Below, piece after piece: positions 1,705 to 60,347 of a stretch of 64,000 bases of DNA. The position numbers were made by a program, and so were the translations under genes. The notes under the pieces were generated by a model. The model worked only from the letters and a program-made list of their open reading frames with translations. It was not told the DNA's origin and made no database searches. How positions within the stretch are numbered: position 1 is the first letter of the stretch; every line of letters begins with the position of its first letter. This DNA is from Mustelus asterias (lineage: Eukaryota): assembly GCF_964213995.1 (NCBI RefSeq), contig NC_135819.1, positions 51,956,001-52,020,000 of the forward strand. Reading direction: 5' to 3'.

Positions 1705-2430
1705 ACTTTAAGTTTATTTATTAGTGCCGTAAGTAGGCTTATATTAACACTGCAGAGAAGTCACTGTGAAAATCCCTCAGACGCCACACTCTGGCGCCTG
1801 TTTGGGTACACTGAGAGAGAATTTAGCATGGCCAATGTACCTAACCAGGACATATTTAGGTCTGTGGGAGGAAACCAGAGCACGTGGAGGAAACCAATGC
1901 AGACACTGGGAGCACATGCAGACTCCGCACAAACAGTGACCCAAGCCGGGGATCAAACCCAGGTCCCTGGTGCTGTGAGGCAGCAGTGCTAACCACTCTG
2001 CCATCATGCCGCCCAATGAAGTTACTGTGAAAATCCCCTAGTCGCCACACTCTAGTGCCAGTTCAGGTACATTGAGAGAGAATTTAGCATGGCCAATGCA
2101 CCTAACCAGCACATCTTTCGGATTGTGGGGCCAATAGTTTTTAAAGTTTATTTATTAGTCACAAGTAGGCTTACATTCACACTGCAGTGAAAATCCCCTA
2201 GTCACCACACTCTGGCACCTGTTCAGGTACACTGTGGGAGAATTTAGCATGGCCAATTCATCTAACCTGCACATCTTTGGACTGTGGGAGGAAACTGGAG
2301 CACCCGGAGGAAACCCATGCAGACACGGGGAGAACATGCAAACTCCACACAAACAATGACTCAAGCTGGGAATTGAATCTGTGTCTCTAGCGCTGTGAGG
2401 CATCAGTGCTAACCACTGTGCCACCGTGCC
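1705..2430 (-). mobile_element. Tandem cluster of HE1-type SINEs with the alternative tail (1705-2014 full, 2016-2130 partial, 2140-2430 full)
   Basis: Same head and core as HE1; the 3' end is gtgtggcgactaggggattttcacagt...aagcctacttgtgactaataaataaact. Confidence 0.88.
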
Positions 2431-4502
2431 AAAATTGAAGCGTGGAACAGTGGCTATGGTCCTGATATATAATGGAGGATCGGTGAGAGAAATCACAACA
2501 TTTTGAATAATGGCTTTTCAGAAAACAAAGCTCCAAGAAGAAACTCTGGGCCAAATGAATGATGTGAGGAATACAAAATAAAGCTTTGTTACTGAAACCA
2601 CTGCTGCTTCAAATTCACATTGATGGCTTAATGCTGCATGACCACATTGGCAATCAAGTCAAATCAATTAGGAAAGGCAGTTGATCCTGACAAGGCAGCT
2701 CAAAAAGTATACATTGAACTCACAAAACTAATAATGGAGCAGTTTAATGAGATTGAATGTGAACAAGAGAAAATGCATCACGTAGGCCGGGATTTTCCAC
2801 GCCAGATCGGGGTGGCAATGGGGAGATTGAAAAATCTCGTGAGAAGGCCCTCGGTGCGTTTCCCGGTGTTGAAAATCCAGAACGCAATTGTCCACTTCAC
2901 CCAATCAACTGTGGGCCTCATTTCCTGCCATTGAATGTCGGGAACTTAATTTTAATAAATTTGCATCTCATTATTGTGGCCTCATTTCAGAATGGCGTGA
3001 TTGACAACTGCTTTTAAAAGGTTTGTGCCTGGCGACCTGAACTTCAAGGGGAACCCGGGAGTGAGTGCACACAACTTAGCGCAGCGCACAAGAGGATCCC
3101 AATGCAAGGAAGCAATTCTGCAGATTCAGGGGTGGGTCACAGGCAAGTCTCCACGGCAGCTACCTTGTGGTGTCACAGCATGAGCAATAGTGCAGGGGAG
3201 AAGGGAGGAAACGGAGCCCAGGGTATGGGAAAAAAATGCAGTGGGCAGGGATGGAGGGAGGGAAATCATGGCAGCACAGACTGAAGGTTGCACTCAAACA
3301 CATGATCAGGGGGTGCCTGATTGGGAGGTGAGGGAGGGGTGAAGAAATGACCAGGCAAGTGAAAAAACAGGTCAAAGGTGAGCACTCTTACACAGCTCAG
3401 ATAGTTTAGCTTGAGTTCAATTGCCATGCTTGGTTTCAGGCCCACACAAGCAGCACTACTCTCAGAAGATGTCAATGATTGCTGCTCTACATTTAAGCCC
3501 TCATGTGCAGACTTCTACGTCCAGTGACTACTTTGGTTTAGCAGAACCGTTGGGCGACTGGGCAAGCTTGAGGATCCCCTTAGGAAAGGTGGCCATGGAG
3601 CACTAATTGAGGGGAGCGCTCCTATTTCCTTGCTTCCCATTAGAGTTCACATCAAAAAGTGCCCCTCATGGTCCAAGAAAAGTGCAAGGACTTGGAGTGC
3701 ATGTCAGAACAATGCCTGAGTGTGAGGTGAGAGTTCAGTCAAGTTCCCGAAACTATTGTTATTTGGTCATGTGGTGTGTGGTGGTAGGGAGATGGGAGGC
3801 ATGTGGTTAACCAAAGCAATTCTCCGAGTGCCCACACACTGGGATGTCCCTCCCTCTACCTGTTGTGGATCAGACAGAATGGTGTGCTCACCAGATTGTG
3901 ACCCCCGAGGTTAGTCTAGAACTAGGCCCCGCTGAGGTGTACGTGTCTTTGCACTGATGGAGGGTGTGGGTGAGTGCTGTGACAAGTTAACAGTGTCGGT
4001 GTTTATGGATTCCTCTTCTGTACTCCTCTCGGGGCTGAAGTACAGGGCCTGGCTCGCATACACCCTTGGCTGCTTCCCTGATGTGTCTGTGATAAAAGGA
4101 GAGATCATTAGTGTGTGGCAGGGGCCTGCGAAGCAGGAGACATCACTCACAGCATGGTCGTCTGATGGACGTTGCAGTGCAGGGTCCTCACTTTGTTGAT
4201 CGCTGCCGACCTCACCATCAGCCCAGGAGTGCTCCTCATCCTCGCCAACCAGCTGAACCTCTCTAACTTCAAAGTCTGCCAGGACCTTGAGTTCAGCCAT
4301 TCCTCCAGCAGTCTGGGAACTATCTCTTTTGTTGTGTGCTAGCTTCCCCTGCGTGAAGATAGATGGAGAAAATGCCAGTAGCACACCTTCCAGGTGTCAC
4401 AAGTAGGATGGGTTTTGGGTGAGTGGAAGAAGTGAATGAAGATGTGACCTGTGTGGGAGATGAAGATGTTTATGGGAGAGTGGTGTAATAGAATCATCGA
4501 AT

Positions 4503-5150
4503 CATAAGAACATAAGAACATAAGAAATAGGAGCAGGAGTAGGCCATCTAGCCCCTCAAGCCTGCTCCGCCATACAATAAGATCATGGCTGATTTGATAG
4601 TGGGTTCAGTTCCACTTACCCGCCCGCTCCCCATAACCCTTAATTCCCTTAATGGTTAAAAATCGATCTATCTGTGACTTAAACACATTTAACGAGGTAG
4701 CCTCTATTGCTTCATTGGGCAGAGAATTCCAAAGATTCACTACCCTCTGAGAGAAGAAGTTCCTCCTCAACTCTGTTCTAAATTGACTCCCCCGTATTTT
4801 GAGGCTATGGCCCCTAGTTCTTGTTTCCATTGTAAGTGGAAATAACCTCGCTGCTTCTACCCTGTCTAGCCCCTTCATTATCTTATATGTCTCTATAAGA
4901 TCTCCCCTCAACCTTCTAAACTCCAATGAGTACAGGCCCAGTCTACTCAATCTCTCCTCATAAGCTAACCCCCTCATCTCCGGAATTAACCTGGTGAACC
5001 TTCTCTGTACCCCCTCCAAAGCTAATATATCCTTTCTTAAATAGGGGACCAAAATTGTACATAGTACTCTAGGTGCGGCCTCACCAGTACCCTGTACAGT
5101 TGCAGCATTACCTCCCTGCTTTTATACTCCATCCCTCTCGCGATAAAGGC
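4503..5150 (-). mobile_element. CR1-clade LINE 3' fragment (young)
   Basis: ORF 4606-5052 has the CR1 ORF2 C-terminus (LEGVQRRFTRLIP..LGLYSLEFRRLRGDLIETYKI..TRGHSLK..NFFSQRVVNLWNSLP); (ttcttatg)n tail at 4503-4527. Confidence 0.95.
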
Positions 5151-5246
5151 AGGAGAGGACCATTCGGCCCATTGAGTCTGCACCATCTCTCGAACAGCTC
5201 CTCTCCCTCACCCTATCCTCACATTTACCATGGCTAATTTATCTAA

Positions 5247-5347
5247 ATGTGGAGATGCCGGCGTTGGACTGGGGTGAACACAGTAAGAAGTCTCACAACA
5301 CCAGCTTAAAGTTGGTTAACTTTAACCTGGTGTTGTGAGACTTCTTA
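5247..5347 (-). mobile_element. Short fold-back Penelope-like insertion (no ribozyme core) inside an HE1 SINE
   Basis: Inverted arms agtaagaagtctcacaacacca / tggtgttgtgagacttcttact; flanking repeat ctaatttatctaa (5234-5246) / ctaattaatctaa (5348-5360). Confidence 0.8.
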
Positions 5348-6215
5348 CTAATTAATCTAACCCACACATCTTGGCACACTAAAGGGCAATTTACCAAGGC
5401 CAATTCACCTGCACATATTTTGTCACTTGATCTGGCATCGAACATGATCCCTGTGGACGTGTGATGGGTTTCTGAGCTTGTGAGTTGAGAGTGATGAGAA
5501 GAGTGACTTACCTTAGTGGAACGGAGGAGATCGTTCATCCTCTTTTGGCACTGCATGGTTGGAGGATTACAACATGTGCTGACTACACCTGCCACTGCCT
5601 CCCATGTTGGATCTGTCATCTTGCTTGGTGGTCTATGCCCAGAGCAGGGATAGAGGACATTGTGGTGAGCTTCCACTGCGTCAAGTAGAAAGGTATCACT
5701 AAATTTAATGCAGCATGTTTCTTGGTTTTAGCATCCATCAACGTTAGCAGCTTCCTGTTCCTTGAGGAGTGCGAGCTCAGTGCAGGGGTGTCCATTAAAT
5801 GTGGCACCCGGATTACTGAAACTCTGAGGTCAACCTGGAACCAGCAAATCGTACACCGCACCGTCAGCGATCTGACATGAAACCCGTGCCTCAGTGCCGG
5901 TCAACACAAGTCATATTGATGTTGATGCGTCAAACACCACTTTATCCAACCAAAATCGGATTTCGCTGAAAACTGGGACAATTCCATCCATGGAAAAGAC
6001 AAATGGAGCCATATAAACTCTATGAATGATGTTGAAATATTGAAGGGCAAATTGAAAGAGGCCAGTTCGCCTCAGTGTACTCAATGCCCCGCATGTCCAA
6101 CCACCGCTTAGCAACAAAAACAAATCAAGTAGGATGTTAAACTATAAAGCCAAAACAATTGATTGCACTTTAGAGGAAATCATTCACACACTCACGCTCG
6201 ATCAGACTACACCTC

Positions 6216-6351
6216 GACCGGAATTCTCCGACCTCGCCCGCTGCTGGGATTCTCCAGTCCCGCTGCTGTGGATGGAGATTTGGCTCCGTGCCAAATTCTC
6301 CCTTCTCGCTGGCAGCGATAGAGAGGCGTGAATGGATGGAGAATTCCAGCC
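6216..6351. mobile_element. Harbinger-type MITE, family A (~135 bp)
   Basis: TIRs gaccggaattctcc / ggagaattccagcc with 3-bp TSD ctc; homologous to 28745-28874 and 33434-33569. Confidence 0.75.
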
Positions 6352-6649
6352 CTCGTGTACTATTCACTGAAGCACAAGAGAAATAGTCAAGCAACAGAGA
6401 TAACTCAGAGAAATGTCCCAAGGTTGATCCCGATGTCAGAGGCCAGGATTATGAAGAAAGGATTTTAAAAGTATAGAGTCTCATGAAGGTATTTAAAATA
6501 CCAAATAGTATTGAGCAAAATACATTAAACTAAATTGTGAATAGGACAAGGAGACACAAGTTAAATCTTGTAAATCTAGGGCTGAAATCAGAAAGATCTT
6601 CACATAAAAAGAGAAAATGGATTTTCAGGTAAAGAATTGGAGACCAAAA

Positions 6650-7449
6650 ACCTGGAATAATAACAAATGGGATTACTATCTCAATGGAAACAAATTAAAA
6701 CATGCTACCGTGCAAAGGGACCTGGGGGTCCTTGTGCATGAGACGCAAAAGCCCAGTCTGCAGGTACAACAGGTGATCAAGAAGGCAAATGGGATGTTGG
6801 CCTATATTGCGAGGGGGATAGAATATAAAAGCAGGGATGTCTTGATGCACCTGTACAGGGCATTGGTGAGGCCGCAGCTGGAATACTGTGTGCAGTATTG
6901 GTCCCCTTATATGAGGAAGGATATATTGGCATTGGAGGGAGTGCAGAGAAGGTTCACCAGGTTGATACCGGAGATGAGGGGTTTGGATTATGAGGAGAGG
7001 CTGAGGAGATTGGGTTTGTACTCGTTGGAGTTTAGAAGGATGAGGGGGGATCTTATGGAGACTTATAAGATAATGCGGGGGCTGGACAGGGTGGAGGCGG
7101 AGAGATTCTTTCCACTTAGTAAGGAAGTTAAAACTAGAGGACACAGCCTCAAAATAAAGGGGGGTCGGTTTAAGACAGAGTTGAGGAGGAACTTCTTCTC
7201 CCAGAGGGTGGTGAATCTCTGGAATTCTCTGCCCACTGAGGTGGTGGAGGCTACCTCGCTGAATATGTTTAAAGCGCGGATGGATGGATTCCTGATCGGT
7301 AAGGGAATTAAGGGTTATGGGGATCAGGCGGGTAAGTGGTACTGATCCACGTCAGATCAGCCATGATCTTATTGAATGGCGGGGCAGGCTCGAGGGGCTA
7401 GATGGCCTACTCCTGCTCCTATTTCTTATGTTCTTATGTTCTTATGTTC
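6650..7449 (+). mobile_element. CR1-clade LINE 3' fragment (young, open ORF2 C-terminus)
   Basis: ORF 6617-7345: YYLNGNKL..QRDLGVLVH..IKKANGMLAYIARGIEYKS..LYRALVRPQLEYCVQYWSPY; 3' UTR gggctagatggcctactcctgctcct and (ttcttatg)n tail. Confidence 0.95.
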
Positions 7450-7489
7450 TAATTATTTAAGAAAATATTAAATGTAATAACTGCATGAG

Positions 7490-7620
7490 GGAGTCTATGG
7501 TGCAGTGGGTAGTGTCTCTGCCTCCGAGCCAGAAATTCTGGGTTCGAGTCCCACCACAGGACTTGAAAGCCAATGAAAGTGCATTCAAAACGTGGCCAAA
7601 CAATTTGAGTATAAACTTGT
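7490..7620 (+). mobile_element. tRNA-derived SINE head (other family)
   Basis: tggtgcagtggg A-box-like and gggttcgagtccc B-box motifs; no intact tRNA cloverleaf. Confidence 0.5.
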
Positions 7621-8955
7621 AAATTCTTCCAAAATATGTCAATGGAAGGAGGTAAGAATGGGAGAGATTCCTGGTCAGCCATGTGATGGAAAGAAATTGG
7701 AGCCTCCACCATCACCACTCATAGCTCCAGGCTACAACATGCATGTAGAAGTGTATATTGCCACAGCAACTCAGACTCATTTGGGGGGACTGGTTGGCTG
7801 GGCAGCCAACTTTGATCAGATTTGTGACAACAGCGTGAGGTTTGATCCCTGTTCTGGTTGAGGTGGATTCAGGACCTTAAACTTTGCGCTGTGTGGAGTG
7901 AAGATCACATACAATGGGTTGGACCTGCCCTTTGGGCAGAGAATTCAGGAAGAAGATACAGGATGGATTTGAGTGTCTTTCAGTGTGAATGAAGTAAGTT
8001 GGGACGACTCATTGCTCTCGTCCATATTTGCCCTGTGATCTCTTCATCAGGATGCTGTCATTTCTCACCAAGGGTTACACATGTGGGGAGCTGGGGAATA
8101 ACATTCCTTTTGTCTGGCATTCATTCTCACGATTATTTTTTTTTAGCAGAACTATTGACAGAAGCCATTTCATCCTCCAGGCTGCCCAAAGAGGTTTACA
8201 CCTCACAGAGTTTATATGATCACGTTCGCTATTCACTGCAATGCAGAAATTGTCCCCACGTTCTCATTCATCATATTGATACACATATTTATCACTCCTA
8301 ACTGTAACCCACAATACTTTCATCCTTGTGCTTATATCTCACAGGGAGTCAATGCTAAGTTCTTTTATCACGTTCATTTGTCAGCGACCTCTCATTAATC
8401 ACAGAGAGTTGCAACAGCATATAAGTTTCTCCTTCCCTCCCCCCCAGTTTCTAGATGCAATTTGCCTGACGTTGTAGGATTCTTGCTGCTTTTTGCTCAG
8501 AAACTTTAGCCCTTTTCTGGAATTATTTAGTTTGCTGCCGTGTACCCCGCCCTCGCAAACAACAACTCCTGCCTGACCCCATTTTGTTTCATAGAAACAT
8601 AGGATCCCTACAGTGCAGAAGGGAGCCATTCAGCCCATCAAGCCTGCACCAACTCTCTGACAGAGAGACTGGATGGAATTTTACAAAAGTGATTCTAAGT
8701 GTGCAGCTAGTGTGAAAATGGGAGATTCCTGATCCGTTTTTTGGGGAAGTTTTCACACCCAATCTTACGTCCTTAAGTCATTGAAAAAATGGTCTCGACT
8801 GTTTCGAGCTGCTGCAGGTAGTAGGCTGGGCTTAATTCACCGACCGACCTATAGAGGGAGCTACTGCTCATGTGCAGACCTCTGCTGCTGCACATGCACA
8901 ACTGCAACAGCAATTGAATAGACGGACACAGAGAGAGCAGTCAGGCTCCTGGTTC

Positions 8956-9628
8956 GTCTCACCGATGCACCCCGCCTCTGGACATCCTTTCCTGCAGCGC
9001 AGACAACTCATGCGACTCAGCCAACATTGTCTACCTTACGCACTGCAGGAAAGGATGTCCCGAGGCATGGTACATCGGCGAGACCATGCAGACGCTACGA
9101 CAACGGATGAATGGACACCCTGCAACAATCACCAGGCAGGGGTGTTCCCTTCGAGCCGGGAAACACTTCAGCAGTCAAGGGCATTCAGCCTCCGATCTTC
9201 GGGTAAGCGTTCTCCAAGGGGGCCTTCAAGATACACGACAACGCAGAATCGCCGAGCAGAAACTGAAAGCCAGGTTCCGCACATATGAGGATGGCCTCAA
9301 CCGGGATCTTGGGTTCATGTCACACTACATATAACCCCCACCATTTGGCCTGAGCTTGCAAAATTCTACTAACTGTCTTGGCTTGAGACAATTCACACGT
9401 CTTTAACCTGTGATTATCTCTCTCTCCACTCGCGTTGTCTGTACCTGTAAAGACTTGATTACCTGAAAAGACTCACATTCCGACCATTATCTTGCAATTG
9501 TGTCTTTACCTATATATGCCGTGTTTGTGAACCCACCTCTCCACTCACCTGATGAAGGAGCTGCACTTCGAAAGCTTGTGATTCCAAATAAACCTGTTGG
9601 ACTTTAACCTGGTGTTGTGAGACTTCTT
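8956..9628 (+). mobile_element. Penelope-like retroelement 3' fragment: GIY-YIG endonuclease remnant plus pLTR with hammerhead
   Basis: Reads CDSANIVYL.HCRKGCPEAWYIGETMQTLRQRMNGH...HFSSQGHSASDLRVSVLQGG..QRRIAEQKL.ARFRTYEDGLNRDLG, typical of the Penelope GIY-YIG C-terminus. The downstream pLTR is homologous to 53713-53926. Confidence 0.9.
9546..9580 (+). ncRNA. Minimal type I hammerhead ribozyme motif (stem II partly degenerate)
   Basis: cac-CTGATGA-a-ggagctgcacttc-GAAA-gc-tt-gtg: conserved core, stem I cac/gtg, palindromic AAGCTT stem III. Confidence 0.7.
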
Positions 9629-16250: not shown

Positions 16251-16381
16251 GCTCAAGGGTGTCCTGCAAAGCCTTTGCAGCCTTCCCCATTGAAGGTCAG
16301 TGACTTACTGCCAACTATGTGACCGTCATTGAGGTAGCACAGCATAGGAGCACTAGGTCTTGCAAAAACTTCTATAAGACA

Positions 16382-16592
16382 TGATGTGGAGATGCAGGCA
16401 TTGGACTGGGGTGGGTACAGTAAGAAGTCTCACAACACCAGGTTAAAGTCCAACAGGTTTATTTGGAATCATGAGCTTTTGGAGCGCTGCTCCTTCATCA
16501 GGTGAGTGACTCACATGATAAGGAGCAGCGCTCCGAAAGCTTGTGGTTCCAAATAAACCTGTTGGACTTTAACCTGGTATTGTGAGACTTTT
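16382..16592 (-). mobile_element. Palindromic Penelope-like insertion with two back-to-back degenerate hammerheads
   Basis: Near-perfect palindrome ~16424-16591 centred on gtgagt-g-actcac (16508); 12-bp TSD ttctataagaca (16370-16381 / 16593-16604). Confidence 0.88.
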
Positions 16593-16619
16593 TTCTATAA
16601 GACAAGCATCAAAGGAAGC

Positions 16620-18510: not shown

Positions 18511-18556
18511 AATGGGGACGAGTGGCCTGAGTAGAACTCTTGAAATCAGACCAAGA

Positions 18557-18876
18557 CGGGGCGGCACGGTGGCACAATGGTTAGCACTGCTGCCTCACAA
18601 TGCCAGGGACTCAGGTTTGACTCCCAGCTTGGATCACTATCTGTACGGAGTCTGCACATTCTCTCCCGTGTCTGTGTGGGTTTCCTCCGGGTGCTCCGGT
18701 TTCCTCCCAAAGTCCGAAAGACGTGCTGGTTAGATGCATTGGCCATGCTAAATTCTCCCCTCAGTGTACCCGAACAGGCGCTGGAGTGTGGCAACTAGGG
18801 GAATTTCACAGTAATCTCATTGCAGTGTTAATGTAAGCCTATTTGTGACACTAATAAATAAACTTTAAACTTTAAA
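18557..18876 (+). mobile_element. HE1-type SINE, alternative tail
   Basis: ggggcggcacggtggcacaatggttagc ... gtgacactaataaataaactttaaacttt. Confidence 0.92.
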
Positions 18877-33569: not shown

Positions 33570-35539
33570 AAAGTCTACAAAAGGTCCACAACCTGCAACA
33601 ACAAAATTATTAATTTAATAATTGGAAATATTTAGCTGTTCCGAGGGAAAACAATAAAAATGATGTTGAATTATTGAAACAACTGAGGGCGGCATTGAAG
33701 AAAGGAAGGGAGCTGGGCATGGGTGATCTGAATTGATTGGAGTCTTTCACTGAGGAAAGGAAATGTCAGGTCTATTAAGATACTTCTTTCTGTTGCAGCC
33801 TTAATCTCCGATTTAGTAATTTTCCAAGGCAACTTTGAAATTTGGGGCCACGCCAGTACCAGAAATGTTACAAATTGACCTTGGAAGATGAGCAAGTGAT
33901 GAAATGTGGAAGAAATTCAACGGAAAATGTCAGGTTTACATCATATGTGTCAAAATTATAATCCACTTTCTGAGTGCCCATGGTATTCATGTTATTTCCA
34001 CAATTCTGTCAAATATCAGACTGGCAACTTTATTCTCCTGTAAAGACTGTCTGAATGATTGGAGGGGCAACTGAAGGAATCTTAATTTTCTTTATTTCCA
34101 GAAAATCCACAAACATGCCTTGTAAGAAATCCAAACGCATCCACGAGGAGACATTTCCATTATTAAGCATCAAGTGTACAAATAAACTTCAATGGTGTTT
34201 GGTTTAACTTGATGCCATTTAAGTGTTCTTCAAATGCTCATAGCATGAAAAGAAATTACCCTCAAACTCTGCTTTCGTACTTTGTTGAACACTTGACAGT
34301 TCTAATAGAAAATGTAACAAAGGCAAGTCAGTGAATAAGAAGGTGGTACCAGAGGCTGGTCACCTTAGAGATAAAAGATAATGATTTTTTCCAGGAGGGA
34401 GTCTTTATACAAGGATCAAATTCGTTATTCATTTCATCTGTTCATCCAGAGGGGCCAGTTAACTGAATACCACTGGGACCTGAATCCAATAGAATCCAGC
34501 AAGTATTAGTTATGGGCACTGTCAGGTTTGACAGTCAGTTTGTTATAATAATACAATCAGGTTCACCATGAAATAGAAAACTGATAGAAAATGTGATACC
34601 GAGGAAGTATAGTTCCTGTGCTAATTACAAAAGCTGCACTTTCCCTGATTATGCTGTACATTATAACGTTCCCTGTGACATAAAAAGGTAATAAAATCAT
34701 ATTACAGCAGTGGATCACAGTCACTATGCCACAATTTATGATATTAACAAATTTCTCTTGAGGACAGTTGCAGAATAATTTGACGGGAATATGCTTCTAC
34801 TGTAACTTGCTCTACTCAAGGTATGAAAACATAAAGTCGTTCTCCCCTTTAAAACCAACCAGCCACACTATTTGTTCTAATTACTGTCCACACTCTTAAA
34901 TTATGTTAGGAACCAAAATTAGCAAAGGCCTGCTATACTGACACATGAATATATTCTTCAATAAAGTCAAATTCTCTCCTTCTAGGAGAGGATGTGTTCA
35001 AGAAAATTTAAGCACCAGCCTTTAATTGCTGTGTCTATTAAAGTAACAAATCTTCCAATGCAAAATAAGTAAATTTGGATAACATTGCAAATGATGCACT
35101 TAGGAATCCCTCTTGGAAGTTCCCACATAAAGGTTTACTCAGCAATTATCCAGAAGTGCTCATTTCCCCTGGACAATTGTGCTGGATGGGGAACCATTCG
35201 ACAGAAGCCATTTAAATCGTTAACTTCAGACGGTTCTGCCAGTTTTACCCCGATAGTTACTTTGAAAGAGAAAGAAGGGAAAAAAGGTCACATCTAACTC
35301 CAGAGTAACTATCTAAACACCCAGACCCAACCATGCATGGGACAACCCGCACACACATGACCTCCCCCCCACCCCCAACCCCAGTGGATCCCTTACACCA
35401 CCCCCACCCCCAACCTGATACCATTGATGGGTGGGGCAAACCAGTAAAATCACGCGAGAACCGAGAAATCAGGATCTATTGATAATTTCAATAGATTTTC
35501 CTACAAAGTAAATAATTTATGCTCAAAATTTCATGGTTA

Positions 35540-35709
35540 GAAGTCTCACAACACCAGGTTAAAATCCAACAGGTTTATTTGGTAGCACTCACCTGATGGA
35601 GAAGCAGCTCTCCGAAAGCTCGTGCTACCAAATAAACCTGTTGGACTTTAACCTGGTGTTGTGAGACTTCTTACTGTGCCCACCCCAGTCCAACGCCAGC
35701 ATCTCCACA
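35540..35709 (+). mobile_element. Fold-back Penelope-like insertion with one hammerhead core in the loop
   Basis: ~50-bp arms 35539-35588 / 35622-35671; core cac-CTGATGG..GAAAgctc-gtg; 17-bp TSD tcaaaatttcatggtta (35523-35539 / 35710-35726). Confidence 0.88.
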
Positions 35710-36542
35710 TCAAAATTTCATGGTTATTGATCACATGTGCAAGCTGATCCAAAATGGTTCACACACAATCTGCCATCCACATTGATTTCTTTGATCAAAC
35801 CCAGTAACCAAACAAAAGATGAAAAGAAAATCTACCCATCCCTCACGCATATACAGTGAAGCAAATTTGCCCGTAACTTCTTCAGAGTGACAATCTCCTC
35901 CAGATTGCCACTCTGAATGGATTTATCCACATTGTAATTCCAAAGCCCCTGTCTCGCCCAACCTTCCTCAATCAGGCTGAGTAAATCAGGAGCAGCAAAG
36001 CACACCCCCAGCTGCATTGGCATGGAGTAACTGAGGAACAGGGAAGAGAAGGGCGCCACCTTTTTATGGCTGCCGTAAAGGACATGTTCAAATGGATATT
36101 TAACGGCAGATTTTAAGTTTCGAAGATATGTGGTTCAGACAATTGGGGGGAGACTGGGAGGAAGAGAAAGGGGGTGGGAGTGGGGAGAGAGACCTGGAGA
36201 CAGGGAGTTAGTGATATGTGGGTTGGGTCAGGTCAGCGGGGAGGTGTTTGGGTCGGGGTCAGTTCGGCGGGGGTTGGCTCAGGCTGGGTGGGGTGAAGGG
36301 GAAGAGTTGGACTGGGTTGGGCTGGGTTGGGATTGGTGGTTGTCGGGTTGGTTGTGGGGGTGGTGTAAGGGATCTACTGTGGGAGGGTCCTGTGTGTGCA
36401 GGACGTCCCATGCATGGCTTGGTCTGTGTGTTTAGAGAGTTACTCTGGAGTTAGATGTGATTTTTTTCTCCTTCTTTCTCTCCCAGAGTAACTATCGGGG
36501 TAAAACTGGCAGAACCATCTGAAGTTAGTGATTTATAATCAT

Positions 36543-41204: not shown

Positions 41205-42240
41205 CCAGAATCATAGATGAATTCACCACATAAAGAGGCCATTTGACCCATTGGGTGGAATTTTCCTGTCCCACTCCCCACGGGAATCGTAGCGGGTGAG
41301 ACACGGACCATGCAAAGACCCATTGACCTTGAGTGGGATTTTCCATTCTTGAGGCAAGCATGGCCAGAAAATCTCACCCATTGTGCCCATGCTGGTTCTC
41401 TTTGAAAGAACAACGCAATTAGTCCCACTCCTCTGTCTTTCTCCCACTAGCTCTGCAAGTCTATTCTCTCCAAGTAATCATCCAATTCCTTTTTAAAATC
41501 GAGAAACAAGCCTTACTCCACCACACTCTCAGGCAATGCATTTCAGATCTTTGCTGTGTAAATTAATTTTCCTAATATCGCCACTGGTTCTTTCGCCAGT
41601 CATTTTAAATCACTGTCCTTGGGTTCTTGATCTTTCCTCTAATGGAAACAGTTTCTCTCTATCTACTCTGTCCAGACCGCTCATGATTTTGAACCTATCA
41701 AATTTCCTCTCAACCTTCTCTTCCCTCAACTTTTTCAATCTATTCATGTAACTGAAGTTCCTCATCCCTGGAACCATTCTTATAAATTCTCTCTGCACCC
41801 AATCCAATGTCTTTGAATACTTCCTAAGGTACGGTGCCCAGAACTGGATGCAAAGCTCCTGTTGAATACAATCTAGTATATTATAAAGTTTGCCGTTACT
41901 TCCTTGCTTATGTACTCTATGCCTCTCATTATAAAGTCCAGGATCTTGTATAACTTTTGAACCACTTTCTCACCCTGCCTTGCCACCTTCAATAGTTTGT
42001 GCACATGCACCCCCTGGTCGCACTGGCTGCTGCACTCCATTTTGAATTTTATCCTATCTTTTTCATTACCTTTCCTTCTTCATCTTAATAAAATGTGTAA
42101 TTTCACACTTCTGCCAGGTTTCTGCCCAATCGACCAGCCTGTCTATGTCATCTTCTGAAGCTGTGCCCTGAACACCCAAGTCTGTCATTAATATAGATCA
42201 AGAACAGATTGAATGTCATCCTCAAGTCCAAGAAATAACT
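41205..42240 (-). mobile_element. Old CR1 3' fragment containing MITE family B (41253-41379, TSD att)
   Basis: ORF 41610-41807 VQREFIRMVPGMRNFSY..KIMSGLDRVDREKLFPL; the MITE has TIRs gggtggaattttc / gaaaatctcaccc. Confidence 0.8.
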
Positions 42241-42274
42241 CTTCACTAATACTCTCTGTTTCCTATAACTCAGT

Positions 42275-42375
42275 AAGAGTTTTAACAACACCAGGTTAAA
42301 GTCCAACAGGTTTATTTGGTAGCAAATGCCATTAGCTTTCGGAGCGCTGCTCCTTCGTCAGATGGAGTGGGTATC
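42275..42375 (-). mobile_element. 101-bp Penelope-like insertion consisting mostly of the ribozyme and its 3' flank
   Basis: 14-bp TSD tcctataactcagt (42261-42274 / 42376-42389). Confidence 0.88.
42329..42365 (-). ncRNA. Minimal type I hammerhead ribozyme, intact consensus
   Basis: Minus strand: ccat-CTGACGA-a-ggagc-agc-gctcc-GAAA-gc-TA-atgg. Stem I ccat/atgg, stem II ggagc/gctcc, palindromic AGCT stem III; predicted cleavage after UA. Confidence 0.85.
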
Positions 42376-42489
42376 TCCTATAACTCAGTCAACTTTGCAT
42401 CCATGCTTGACCTTTTTATTCCATGGGCTTTAACTTAGTTCCAGCCACTCCTCTCAATACCCTATGTCCCAATCTCTGGTTATCCCCAG

Positions 42490-42825
42490 AATCACAGAAT
42501 TGTTATAACACAAAGGAGGCCATTCAATCCATCACATCTTCACTGACTCTCCGAATATACAATTTGCTTAGTGCCCAGCTTCCACCTTATTCCCGTAACC
42601 CTGAATGTTTTTCCTTTTCAGTTAACTGTCTGATTCCCTTTTGCATGCTTCAGTTGAGCCAGCCTCCACCACCCTCTCAGGCAGTGCAGTCAAGTTCTCA
42701 ACCACTTGCTGCATTAATAAAAATTTCCTTGTGTCGCTTTTGCTTATTTTACTAATTACTTTAAATCTGTGCCCTCTCATCCTTGATCCTTTCACAAGTG
42801 GGAACAGTTTCTCCTTATCTACTCC
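42490..42825 (-). mobile_element. Old CR1 3' end
   Basis: Reverse-complement CR1 3' UTR and ORF2 end motifs. Confidence 0.7.
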
Positions 42826-43010
42826 AGTTAGAAAACCTATTCATTCTGTGTGCTATGTAACTACACCAGCTGTGGACAATATGACATTTACAGGTACAGC
42901 ATGTCCCATTGCTGTCCTGCAGTTTCTGCCTAGTGACAAGGGTGGGACCTGCTGTGAGTGTGTTGATGGGTTCCCCAGCTCAGCTCAAAGGTCAGTGATG
43001 AGCAGTTTAG

Positions 43011-43520
43011 GGGTGGAGTTCTCCCAAGGCCTCCACCGACAGGTTCGATGGTGGGCGTGAGTGAAGAATATAACAGAAAGTTCAGAAATCAGGTACGCGC
43101 TAGCATGAATTTACAGCGGGGCCTTTGATTAGTATCTACCATGGCAGTTCAGAACATGTGCCAGAGGCCAGCGGGAACCTCATTTGCATCTCGTTAATGG
43201 GGCGTAGGTGGAGCCCCAAATCCCTCTGCCAATGCCAGATTCTCGGCGATGTCAGTGGAAATACACACCGGCATGAAACACGTTTGGGACAAAGTGGCAT
43301 GTAAATGCGGAGACTCACCTGAACAATTCCACAATTCCTGGGGCTGCCTCCAGAATTCAGGATGGAGGGCTCCAGCAACCCTGGACCTGGAACACAGCAG
43401 CAGTGGATCAGAGGTGCTTCTACAGGTGGACTCTCCAGATTCAGTGTCCTGGAGAGGATCCATCTTCTAGCTCCAGAATGTTCCTGGAGATCTATCTTTA
43501 CGTCTTTCTTCAATAGTAGT
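43011..43520. mobile_element. Harbinger-type non-autonomous element fragment
   Basis: TIR-like ggggtggagttctccc start and an atttgcat motif shared with the other MITE-like elements here. Confidence 0.45.
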
Positions 43521-52840: not shown

Positions 52841-53509
52841 GATTTCCTCTACATTCCACTGAATAAATTATTAAAACAATAATAGATACTGATAGATCAC
52901 CCACAACATTCCTTGTGCTGTGAATGTCAGGGAGCAGAGTAGGCAGGTAGATTAGGCCAGGGATTGAGGGTTTTGAGTGAAGATATATCTGGTGACAGTG
53001 TGGGGACCAAACGGTTGACTGATTTTCAGAAGATTAATACTGTTGCATTCTGAAACCAGATGGTCTGTTGCTCTTTGTTCTAAGTGGGCCTGTCTAGATG
53101 CTAAAAGTTCTGTTCCTACATTGCTGCATGGGATCACTGAACTCTTTGATGAGAAAGGACATTGCTCCCTTTGCCTTCAGAAGAAGAACTGGGTCACAAA
53201 ACCTAAGTTGGACAAAAGGGGGTAGTTGGTCGAGGGGGGCCTACAAGTAAACAATTTTTTAAAAATTCATTTAAGGGATATGGGCTTTGCTGGCAAGGCC
53301 AGCATTTATTGCCCATCCTTAATTGCCCTTGGTAAGGTGCTGGCAAACTGCCACATTGAACCATGTGCAGTAGGTACACTCACAGTGCTATTAGGGAGGG
53401 AGTTCCAGCATTTTGACCCAGGACAGTGAAGGAATGGCGATATATTTCCAATAGTAAGAAGTCTAACAACACCAGGTTAAAGTCCAACAGGTTTATTTGG
53501 TAGCAAACG

Positions 53510-53546
53510 CCATTAGCTTTCGGAGCGCTGCTTCTTCGTCAGGTGG
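53510..53546 (-). ncRNA. Minimal hammerhead ribozyme motif
   Basis: ccac-CTGACGA-a-gaagc-agc-gctcc-GAAA-gc-TA-atgg (one mismatch each in stems I and II). Confidence 0.75.
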
Positions 53547-53831
53547 AGTGGGAGATCTGCTCACAAACAGGGCATACAGAGATACAAACTCAATTTACAG
53601 AATAATGATTGGAATGCGAGTCTTTACAGCTAATCAAGTCTTAAAGGTACAGACAATGTGAGTGGAGAGAGCATTAAGCACAGGTTAAAGAGATGTGTAT
53701 TGTCTCACTCTGTCTCCACTCACATTGTCTGTACCTTTAAGACTTGATTAGCTGTAAAGACTCGCATTCCAATCATTATTCTGTAAATTGAGTTTGTGTC
53801 TTTGTGCCCTGTTTGTGAGCAGATCTCCACT

Positions 53832-53870
53832 CCACCTGACGAAGGAGCAGCACACTCCGAAAGCTAGCGG
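53832..53870 (+). ncRNA. Minimal hammerhead ribozyme motif
   Basis: ccac-CTGACGA-a-ggag-cagcaca-ctcc-GAAA-gc-TA-gcgg. Confidence 0.75.
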
Positions 53871-55404
53871 CATTTGCTACCAAATAAACCTGTTGGACTT
53901 TAACCTGGTGTTGTTAGACTTCTTACGATGTTTACCCCAGTCCAACGACGGCATCTCCACATCATGATGTATTTCCAAGTCAGGATGGTGTGTGACTTCG
54001 AAGGGAACTCTCTGGGGGTGGTGTTCCCAGGTATCTGCAGTCATCGTCCTTCTAGATAGGTCAAGGTTTGGAAGGTGCTGCCTAAGAATTCTTAATGGGT
54101 TCCTGCAGTGCATCTTGTAGATGGTACATACTGCTGACACTGTCGTGGTGGTGGAGGGAATGATTGTTTGTTTATGGGATGCCAATCAAGAAGGCAGCTT
54201 TGTCCTGGATTGTATCAAACTTCTTGAGTGTTGTTGGAGCTGTACCCATCCAGATAAAGGGAAATAATTCCATTACTCACCTGACTTGTGCCTTGTAGAT
54301 GGTGGACAGGCTTTTGGGAGTCAGGGGTTAGTTACTCACCACATGATTCTTTGGGCAGGATTTTTCGACCTCGCAGATAAAATTCCAGCCTCAGAGCTCT
54401 TGTAGTCACAGTATTTATATGGCTGGTCCAGTTCAGTTTTTGGTCAATGGTAACCCCCAAGATGTTGATAATGTGGGATTCGGCCATGAAAATGCCATTG
54501 AATGTCAAGGGGCAATTCTCCCTTGTTCGAGATGTTCATTGCCTGGCACTTGTGCGGCATCAATATTACTTGCCACTTGTCAGCCCAAGCCTGGATATTG
54601 TCCATGTCTTGTTGCATTTAGACATGGAATGTTTCAGTATCTGAGAAATCATGAATGGAGCTGAACATTGTAGAGTCATCAGTAAACAGTGTCACTTCTG
54701 ACCTTATGATGGATCGAAGGTAATTGTTGAAGCAGCTGAAGCTGGTTGAGCTGAGGACACTACCTTGAGGAACTCCTGTAGTGAAGACCTGGAGCTGAGA
54801 TGATTGATCTCCAACCACCACAACATCTTTCTCTGTGTTAGGTGTGACTGCAACAAGTGGAGCATTTCCCCCCTCGATTCCCTTGACTCGAGTTTTGCTA
54901 GGGCTCCTTGATGCCACACTCAGTCAAATGCAAAGCAAGAAGGGCTGAAGGATTACTGATTTCAGAAAACCCAGCATCTGTCCTGCTGAGGTAAAAACAG
55001 TATTTGTGTGGTTGCCCAGTTGAGTTTCTGGTCAGTGTTGATGGGGAGGGACACAGTGATGTTAATACTATTGAATGTCATGTTAGAGAGGTTATTACCT
55101 GATTCTTGCCTCTTATCAGTCCAAGCCATGCTGCTGACAACCATGGACTGCATCATTAGACGGGTTTTGCATACATTCAAGATGGTTGGTGCACATTGTT
55201 GACCTTGAAGAAAGATCTAGCAAGATCTGTGATGTTGATATCACCTCATTTGGCATTAATTTCATTCTGGCACCAGCTGAAGGTGATCTTTGGCATCCAA
55301 CAGCAGTGACGTCACCAAACAGGCTAAGCAGCCATTCACATTGAAGAATTCTCACATGCAGCAAATCATGAAATAAAAACTACTGATTATCCTTCACTTC
55401 TCGT

Positions 55405-59694: not shown

Positions 59695-60347
59695 GTCTTG
59701 CAGCGAGCCTCTGCCCCTCAACCTGACAGCCCCACCAGCTTTAAGCCTCTTCGATTGATAAATTCTACGAAGACAGCTGAGGGCGCCTCTGTGTTGAGCT
59801 ACCCTCAGGCTCTGTGACCTCCCTTGACAATGCCCATTTCTTCTAGTAGGGCTACTGGCCTGGCAATGCTACAGATCCTTTGACTGGACATCGACCCTCA
59901 GGAAGATATCCAGTTAAGAGGCAGCCTCTTGCACTGTGAAATTGCTGATGACCTGGTCCCATTATGGACCTGGTGTCAGGGACTAATGCCTGCTGGAAAA
60001 TCCCTTCCAATATAGGGGAAGATTTTATTACAAAGGATTACACAGGATGTACAGCACAGACACAAGCTATTTGGCTCAAGTGATCCAAGCTGGTATTTAT
60101 ACCCAACTTGAGCTTCCTCCCATCTTTCCTCATCTATCTTCCTGAGGGTGGATGTCCAGTCAAAGGATCTGTAGTGTTGCCAGGCCAGTAGCCCTACTAG
60201 AAGAAATGGGCATTGTCAAGGGAGGCCCAGAGCCTGAGAGTAGCTCAACACAGAGCCGCCCTCGGCTGTCTTCATAGAATTTATCAATCGAAGAGGCTTA
60301 AAGCTGGTGGGGCTGTCAGGTTGAGGGGCAGAGGCTCACTGCAAGAC
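59695..60347. repeat. High-identity inverted duplication, arms 59695-59908 and 60135-60347
   Basis: For example gacaatgcccatttcttctagtagggctactggcctggcaa pairs with ttgccaggccagtagccctactagaagaaatgggcattgtc. Confidence 0.95.

What the first reader, a model, noticed from the sequence alone, without database searches (positions are those of the whole stretch)
42261..42389. Intact minimal hammerhead ribozyme mobilised as a 101-bp TSD-flanked unit
Seen: the minus strand of 42329-42365 has a complete core (CUGACGA...GAAA...UA) with perfect stem I (CCAU/AUGG) and stem II (GGAGC/GCUCC) and only a palindromic AGCU in place of stem III. It is flanked by a perfect 14-bp TSD. Established: Penelope-like elements carry such minimal type I hammerheads in their pLTRs, and these are thought to cleave mainly as dimers through the palindromic stem III. 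Inference: this is a recent insertion of little more than the ribozyme, and it could cut any host transcript read through it.
Basis: partly seen in the sequence, partly recalled or inferred. Interest (0 to 1): 0.7.

Follow-up and report, generated by a model that had tools for sequence, protein, structure and literature searches.

The report
Single-armed Penelope retrotransposon stub with hammerhead
This is a real, recent insertion of the last ~100 bases of a very abundant Penelope-like jumping gene; its minimal hammerhead ribozyme came along as a passenger and is likely inactive on its own, so the locus is ordinary, but its sister copies share a symmetric landing site (TG-16 bases-CA) that likely records how the element's enzyme cuts DNA.

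Summary
Observation confirmed: the minus strand holds a complete minimal type I hammerhead (42329-42365) inside 101 bases between exact 14-bp repeats, and a related species has the empty site. It is not a ribozyme-only mobile unit. It is a 5'-truncated, tail-less 3' end of a Penelope-like element (RT + GIY-YIG ORF of 892-893 aa), with about 170,000 intact-core hammerhead copies genome-wide (extrapolated from 1.59 Mb). TSD-flanked stubs that start inside or past the ribozyme exist, so the hammerhead is not needed for insertion. Stem III cannot form in a monomer, so cutting of host transcripts is unlikely. Family statistics: 48 of 49 head-to-head pairs join a tailed to a tail-less arm; targets match TG-N16-CA (43 of 88, 1.1 expected), which makes the true duplication here likely 12 bp; 5' ends cluster just upstream of the hammerhead, not at its cut site. 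I did not find the target motif in print. This scan has noted the paired ends and a symmetric target before, on this and other genomes. Locus ordinary; family mechanism moderately interesting.

The parts
42273..42375 (-). Inserted Penelope-like pLTR stub, element positions +1 to +103; 5'-truncated and lacking the ~40-base tail. 42273-42274 are ambiguous (element or target).
   Evidence: other copies continue on both sides; 12-bp rule; empty site
42329..42365 (-). Minimal type I hammerhead; predicted cut between 42333 and 42332; no monomeric stem III
   Evidence: sequence; conservation and covariation
42261..42272 (.). Target-site duplication, left copy (12 bp by the family rule; exact repeat runs to 42274)
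42376..42387 (.). Target-site duplication, right copy (exact repeat runs to 42389)
42256..42258 (-). CAG half of the symmetric target motif, 2 bases outside the 12-bp duplication
   Evidence: sequence; family motif
42390..42392 (-). TTG half of the symmetric target motif, 2 bases outside the 12-bp duplication
   Evidence: sequence; family motif
42285..42319 (-). Conserved pLTR segment between hammerhead and tail-less end (element +57 to +91, includes AATAAA); role unknown, possibly RT-binding
   Evidence: 95-100% majority base in 97 copies; role is inference
41950..42260 (-). Decayed LINE reverse-transcriptase fragment into which the stub inserted (CR1-like label recalled, not tested)
   Evidence: translation and 61-74% DNA matches to sampled repeats

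Best explanation
The 101-103 bases are a dead-end, 5'-truncated and tail-less copy of the 3' end (pLTR) of an abundant endonuclease-bearing Penelope-like element, likely made by target-primed reverse transcription, and the hammerhead is a passenger that likely does not cut alone. Shown: parent element with RT and GIY-YIG domains, two classes of 3' end about 38 bases apart, the empty site in a relative, and a TG-N16-CA target consensus that this site fits exactly. Inferred: the endonuclease nicks each strand two bases 5' of CA, leaving 12-base 3' overhangs; one overhang primed cDNA at the inner (tail-less) start near +103; synthesis stopped about 10 bases upstream of stem I; the other overhang was joined directly instead of priming the tailed second arm that most sister insertions have. 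Inferred: the ribozyme is maintained in the parent RNA, where two copies or the element's protein would allow folding, and has no selected role at this locus.
For:: other copies run on upstream (up to 489 bases shared) and downstream into a tail ending at the ORF start codon; 892-893-aa ORF with RVT_1 (E 1e-9, 4e-10) and, in L145, GIY-YIG (E 3e-5, above cut-off); L017, whose 101-base segment is 99% identical to the query, encodes a fragment 96% identical to that ORF; in 159 x 10 kb, 156 3' ends (79 tail-less at +101 to +117, 77 tailed at +134 to +146), 107 events, 48 of 49 facing pairs mixed; among the 24 random-sample events with an exact 12-bp repeat, TG at -4,-3 in 13 and CA at +3,+4 in 18 (background 8%); TG-N16-CA centred in 43 of 88 events (1.1 expected); 7 clean single-arm tail-less and 7 tailed TSD-flanked inserts among 107 events; three tail-less ones start at +23, +30, +43; empty site; stems I and II form with probability 0.01 and 0.04 in the 103-base RNA. 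PMC11167929 (parts 1-2 of 4 read): two RT start sites bracket the tail, both strands are cut and extended, hammerhead mutants insert normally, no cleavage without protein. PMC9977147 (passages): new PLE insertions had median length 128 bp.
Against: No RNA evidence either way. The exact full-length master of this subfamily was not found (L144/L145 are 85-89% identical over this region); Pfam found no GIY-YIG in L144's C-terminal part and nothing in the L017 fragment. PMC11167929 reports an ATT cleavage preference for the anole element, not TG-N16-CA, though on one substrate. TG-N17-CA is also enriched (18 of 88), so the stagger is not fixed, and 50 of 107 random events had no exact repeat of 10 or more and were left out of the motif count. 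The isolated 48-base hammerhead folds stems I and II at >0.95, so the fold is context-dependent. 5' ends are about 4-fold enriched just upstream of the hammerhead, so stubs of this length are somewhat favoured.
Confidence: 0.85

Rival explanations
1. The stub is a run-off copy of the element RNA's front end: transcription starts in the pLTR about 5-15 bases upstream of the hammerhead core, RT primes at +103 and falls off the 5' end of the RNA, so ~100-base tail-less and ~140-base tailed stubs are a preferred product. Compatible with the best explanation; it differs only in why the 5' end is here.
For: 23 of 145 called 5' ends lie at -1 to +11, 0.022 per base against 0.0056 in the flanking zones, P 6e-8; mode at +9. 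A TATA-like word lies about 30 bases upstream of this zone in L144 (motif reading recalled). PMC3846280 (passages) reports a TATA box and initiator-like word in a rotifer pLTR; PMC2377424 (passages) an internal promoter in Penelope.
Against: No cap or start-site data. This copy begins at 0/+1, 8-9 bases upstream of the mode. The same zone holds a palindromic hexamer in the subfamilies seen, which could favour arm-to-arm joining without any start site. Three misaligned rows were dropped by hand and 8 ends could not be called.
Confidence: 0.4
2. An autonomous-like mini-element or retrozyme: a ribozyme-defined short RNA, possibly circular, that is copied as a unit by the PLE protein.
For: Intact core and TSD; similar-sized single-arm copies exist (L001, L010); animal non-LTR retrozymes are argued to derive from PLE pLTRs (bioRxiv 10.64898/2026.07.22.740005, abstract, introduction and part of methods read).
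Against: Not a tandem repeat; ends are not set by the cut site (4 of 145 5' ends at +42 to +46, P 0.41); lengths are continuous; the cut site lies in the middle of the insert, so the template was uncut there.
Confidence: 0.06
3. The copy cleaves host transcripts, as a monomer or by pairing with another same-strand copy in one long RNA or in trans with element RNA.
For: Core intact; nearest same-strand copy 11 kb away at 53453-53706; a double hammerhead can be drawn; dimers and trimers of a PLE hammerhead cleaved weakly in vitro (PMC4209133, parts 1-2 of 4 read).
Against: Double-hammerhead energy -20.1 kcal/mol equals two monomers (-10.1 each) and is 10 kcal/mol above the best dimer fold; the AGCU duplex is only -4.5. 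No host exon found: 0 of 92 non-repeat frames reached a Pfam cut-off (short exons would be missed). About 170,000 intact cores are tolerated genome-wide (inference).
Confidence: 0.08

Closest known systems
Truncated insertions of endonuclease-bearing Penelope-like elements with pLTR, optional 30-40-bp tail and TSD (Adineta Pen2a, D. virilis Penelope; PMC3846280, PMC8557442, passages read)
   Same: RT + C-terminal GIY-YIG ORF between pLTRs, tail present on one end only, inverted 5'-truncated arm, strong 5' truncation, TSD.
   Different: This copy has one arm only and no tail; TSD 12-14 bp against 8-10 bp in the rotifer examples; a symmetric TG-N16-CA target was not in the passages read.
Minimal hammerheads of metazoan PLEs (Cervera and de la Pena 2014, PMC4209133)
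   Same: Type I, stem I 4 bp, unpaired base between 9 and 10.1, G10.1-C11.1, palindromic 15.2-16.2 region, mostly single dispersed copies from truncated PLEs.
   Different: Stem II is 5 bp (7-8 bp in their Schistosoma families); copy number here about 170,000 against 2,000-9,000 in their genomes.
Poseidon element of Anolis (PAc; Frangieh 2024, PMC11167929)
   Same: Two RT start sites bracketing the tail; both strands used; hammerhead upstream of the start sites and dispensable for insertion.
   Different: In PAc the ORF starts inside the hammerhead and priming is 111-118 bases into the ORF; here the start codon is at the end of the tail, about 95 bases past the hammerhead. Reported cut preference ATT against NN-CA inferred here.
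Non-LTR retrozymes of animals (PMC7229834, passages read)
   Same: Short, non-coding, type I hammerhead, long TSD.
   Different: Retrozymes are tandem units of 200-400 bases with canonical hammerheads processed to circles; this is a single 100-base piece with the cut site mid-insert and identity to an ORF-bearing element.

Membership tests
Endonuclease-bearing Penelope-like element (parent family) | Single ORF with RT and C-terminal GIY-YIG endonuclease | tested here: met
   RVT_1 in L144 and L145; GIY-YIG in L145, not detected in L144
Endonuclease-bearing Penelope-like element (parent family) | pLTRs in direct and inverted orientation with a 30-40-bp tail at one end | tested here: met
   L144 layout; 48 of 49 facing pairs tailed + tail-less
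Endonuclease-bearing Penelope-like element (parent family) | RT groups with PLE/telomerase RTs; clade (Penelope/Poseidon, Neptune, Nematis) | not tested
   No named PLE proteins at hand; PDB sequence search gave 0 hits
Endonuclease-bearing Penelope-like element (this copy) | Sequence is part of the pLTR and flanked by a TSD absent from the empty site | tested here: met
Minimal type I hammerhead of PLEs | Intact core, stems I and II, bulge at 9/10.1, palindromic stem III region, NUH triplet | tested here: met
Minimal type I hammerhead of PLEs | Self-cleavage (dimer or protein-assisted) | not testable with these tools
   folding models only
Non-LTR retrozyme | Head-to-tail tandem units each with a hammerhead | tested here: not met
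   single copy at the locus; no second unit in 41500-43200
Non-LTR retrozyme | Unit boundaries set by self-cleavage; circular RNA | tested here: not met
   5' ends not enriched at the cut site, 4 of 145; circular RNA itself not testable

The most novel reading that the evidence does not exclude
This family is a quarter-million-event genomic record of the Penelope insertion reaction: a dimeric GIY-YIG endonuclease recognises an interrupted palindrome, (Y)TG-N16-CA(R), nicks both strands two bases 5' of CA to leave 12-base 3' overhangs, and each overhang primes reverse transcription at a different one of two fixed RNA sites; either site alone can complete an insertion, as here, and many short copies run off the capped front of the RNA just upstream of the hammerhead, like a strong-stop DNA.
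Probability: 0.4. Interest if true: 0.6.

Novelty: new member of a known kind. Interest (0 to 1): 0.3.

Why it matters
The locus itself matters little: it is one of very many truncated PLE ends and is unlikely to act as a ribozyme. The family data matter more. How PLEs make their inverted arms and one-sided tail is described as unresolved (PMC8557442, passages), and the one in vitro system used a single target. A symmetric target consensus with a 12-base stagger gives a precise substrate prediction, and intact ORFs exist in this genome to test it. The 5'-end map also argues that the templates for insertion were not cut by the hammerhead.

Tried and rejected
Rfam scan: no hammerhead family hit; the motif rests on direct reading and covariation. 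Independent TSD test by mapping both flanks to one LINE copy: no colinear pair, inconclusive; settled instead by run X5. Expression: no RNA holder listed; a second laying of reads over a wider stretch gave no result, so transcription and its direction are open. Host exons: 0 of 92 frames above a Pfam cut-off, one weak Agouti hit below cut-off. Protein atlas unavailable; PDB 0 hits. Claim that copies stop at the ribozyme cut site: not seen here (4 of 145, P 0.41). A tail-numbering slip was corrected. Literature searches for a PLE target consensus or twin priming found none in listings or in the passages read; subscription papers and supplements were not seen and may hold one. Polymorphism within the species was not established: X1 and X3 both show the two junction contigs, and only the best-supported joints were listed.

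Full report
Observation. The repeat finder gives an exact 14-bp direct repeat at 42261-42274 and 42376-42389. On the minus strand the 101 bases between hold stem I (42365-42362 with 42332-42329), CUGACGA, a bulged A, a 5-bp stem II, GAAA, the palindrome AGCU and a CUA triplet, with the predicted cut at 42333/42332. Rfam does not detect it. One 596-base contig of run X5, a different organism, runs from 41977 to 42260 and resumes at 42376, with 25 other letters in about 595. The site is therefore empty in a close relative and the repeat is single there. The insertion and duplication are real and recent. I number the element from +1 = 42375 on the minus strand.

What it belongs to. A search of the own genome (3.68 Gb) returned 40 near-full-length matches among the 40 candidates scored, at 98-100% identity. 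In the 30 loci fetched, many continue upstream and many continue downstream by about 40 bases. L017 links the segment to an RT-to-endonuclease reading frame; that fragment finds 135 matches of 135 scored at 95-100% and is 96% identical to the ORF of L144. L144 and L145 carry 892- and 893-aa ORFs with RVT_1; GIY-YIG passes the cut-off in L145 but not L144. L144 reads: TSD, inverted tail-less arm, pLTR, tail ending at the start codon, ORF, pLTR with tail, TSD. This is the layout described for endonuclease-bearing Penelope-like elements (PMC3846280, PMC8557442; passages). That the host is a shark is my recollection of this repeat, not a result.

Family census. I sampled 159 stretches of 10 kb at round coordinates on contigs C1-C22 (1.59 Mb). 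They hold 156 element 3' ends, 79 tail-less and 77 tailed, in 107 events: 48 tailed plus tail-less head-to-head pairs, 1 tail-less pair, 29 lone tail-less, 29 lone tailed. Extrapolated: about 250,000 events, 225,000 hammerhead-covering segments and 170,000 intact cores (135,000-215,000); small contigs and chromosome ends were not sampled. Of the 58 lone ends, 36 had no exact repeat of 10 or more; 14 are clean single-arm TSD-flanked inserts of 45 to 1778 bases, 7 of each class; three tail-less ones start at +23, +30 and +43, inside the ribozyme. So this copy's type is about 7 in 107 events, and an intact hammerhead is not required.

Target site. For 88 events with an exact repeat of 10 or more touching the 3' junction (57 of 107 random, 31 of 81 from selected loci after removing one duplicate), repeat length peaks at 12. 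Using only exact 12-bp repeats, TG lies at -4,-3 in 13 of 24 and CA at +3,+4 in 18 of 24 random events (background 8% each), and 12 and 13 of 15 in the selected set. TG-N16-CA is centred on 43 of 88 sites (1.1 expected), TG-N17-CA on 18 (1.6 expected), other spacings 0-5. This site reads TTG, 2 bases, 12 bases, 2 bases, CAG on the minus strand. The likely duplication is 12 bp, and the two extra bases match element +102/+103. By geometry, cDNA primed from both sides of a duplication implies 3' overhangs, each nick two bases 5' of CA; that step is inferred. The site lies in a decayed LINE RT fragment; 4 of the 156 random junctions hit the same LINE position against 0.19 expected, in line with sequence preference.

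The ribozyme. In 97 sampled copies the core bases are 87-97 of 97 conserved, N7 and H17 vary, and the inner stem I pair is C-G in 66 and U-A in 25. This fits selection on the parent RNA, though the change is probably a single event, and +57 to +91 is equally conserved. A monomer has two bases between A15.1 and U16.1 and cannot close stem III. In the 103-base RNA stems I and II have probability 0.01 and 0.04; with 60-base flanks 0.02 and 0.68; in the isolated motif above 0.95. The double hammerhead gains nothing over two monomers in the energy model. Published single minimal PLE hammerheads showed no cleavage and dimers little (PMC4209133); the anole one needed protein and was dispensable for insertion (PMC11167929). 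No transcript or host exon was shown here.

5' ends. Prompted by two earlier notes of this scan, I called 5' ends against 81 long natural copies; 148 of 156 were callable and 3 misaligned rows were dropped. Ends are enriched at -1 to +11 (23 ends, 0.022 per base against 0.0056, P 6e-8) and not at the cut site (4 ends at +42 to +46, P 0.41). A transcription start or a local palindrome could each explain the cluster.

Mechanism. Shown: parent element, two 3'-end classes, pairing rule, target consensus, empty site. Inferred: double nick, priming at the inner start near +103, stop near +1, direct joining of the second overhang. The two end classes match the two RT start sites seen in vitro for the anole element (PMC11167929).

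Comparison and novelty. The copy is a member of a known kind: a truncated PLE end carrying a minimal hammerhead; such single copies were described as widespread in PMC4209133, and new PLE insertions of median 128 bp in PMC9977147 (passages). It fails the retrozyme tests. I did not find the symmetric target consensus in seven searches, with the library's limits and no supplements read. I derived the pairing and the motif before reading the scan's notes, which report both ideas on this and other genomes; those notes are unreviewed and are not counted as support.

Verdict. Interest 0.3, carried mostly by the family's target-site and priming record.

Noticed in passing
window 5247-5349, 16381-16596, 35536-35712, 53453-53965: Four head-to-head tailed + tail-less pairs of the same family; with a lone tail-less copy at 9006-9628 the window holds 10 element 3' ends. 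The Rfam miRNA hits at 5284-5347 fall on one of these hairpins.
   Followed up: partly
L074, L123, L155, L213 junctions; window 42261-42290: A LINE RT position is a recurrent landing site: 4 of 156 random junctions plus this copy, 0.19 expected.
   Followed up: partly
L066, L129, L203, L210, L049: Some apparently lone copies carry a 6-21-base remnant of the opposite arm next to the TSD, as if the second priming began and stopped at once.
   Followed up: partly
L144:1916-5840; L145:3178-6385: Full-length elements with open 892-893-aa frames; several frames of 841-944 aa elsewhere, so the family may still be active.
   Followed up: partly
element +1 to +6 in several subfamilies (window 53554-53560; L144 near 2675; L003): A palindromic hexamer of differing sequence sits just upstream of stem I in the subfamilies seen, at the 5'-end cluster.
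   Followed up: no
window 42311-42316 (minus strand): AATAAA inside the pLTR, 96-100% conserved in 97 copies; possible polyadenylation signal about 38 bases before the tail-less end.
   Followed up: no
window, about 25 places (e.g. 139-451, 1696-2017, 18552-18876): Two abundant ~310-bp SINE-like repeats at about 80% identity; 46% of the window matches the 1.59-Mb sample.
   Followed up: no
window 59695-59908 and 60135-60347; 4503-5150 and 6800-7446: Inverted repeat pairs (95% over 214 bases; 84% over 649 bases) not matching this element's 3' end.
   Followed up: no
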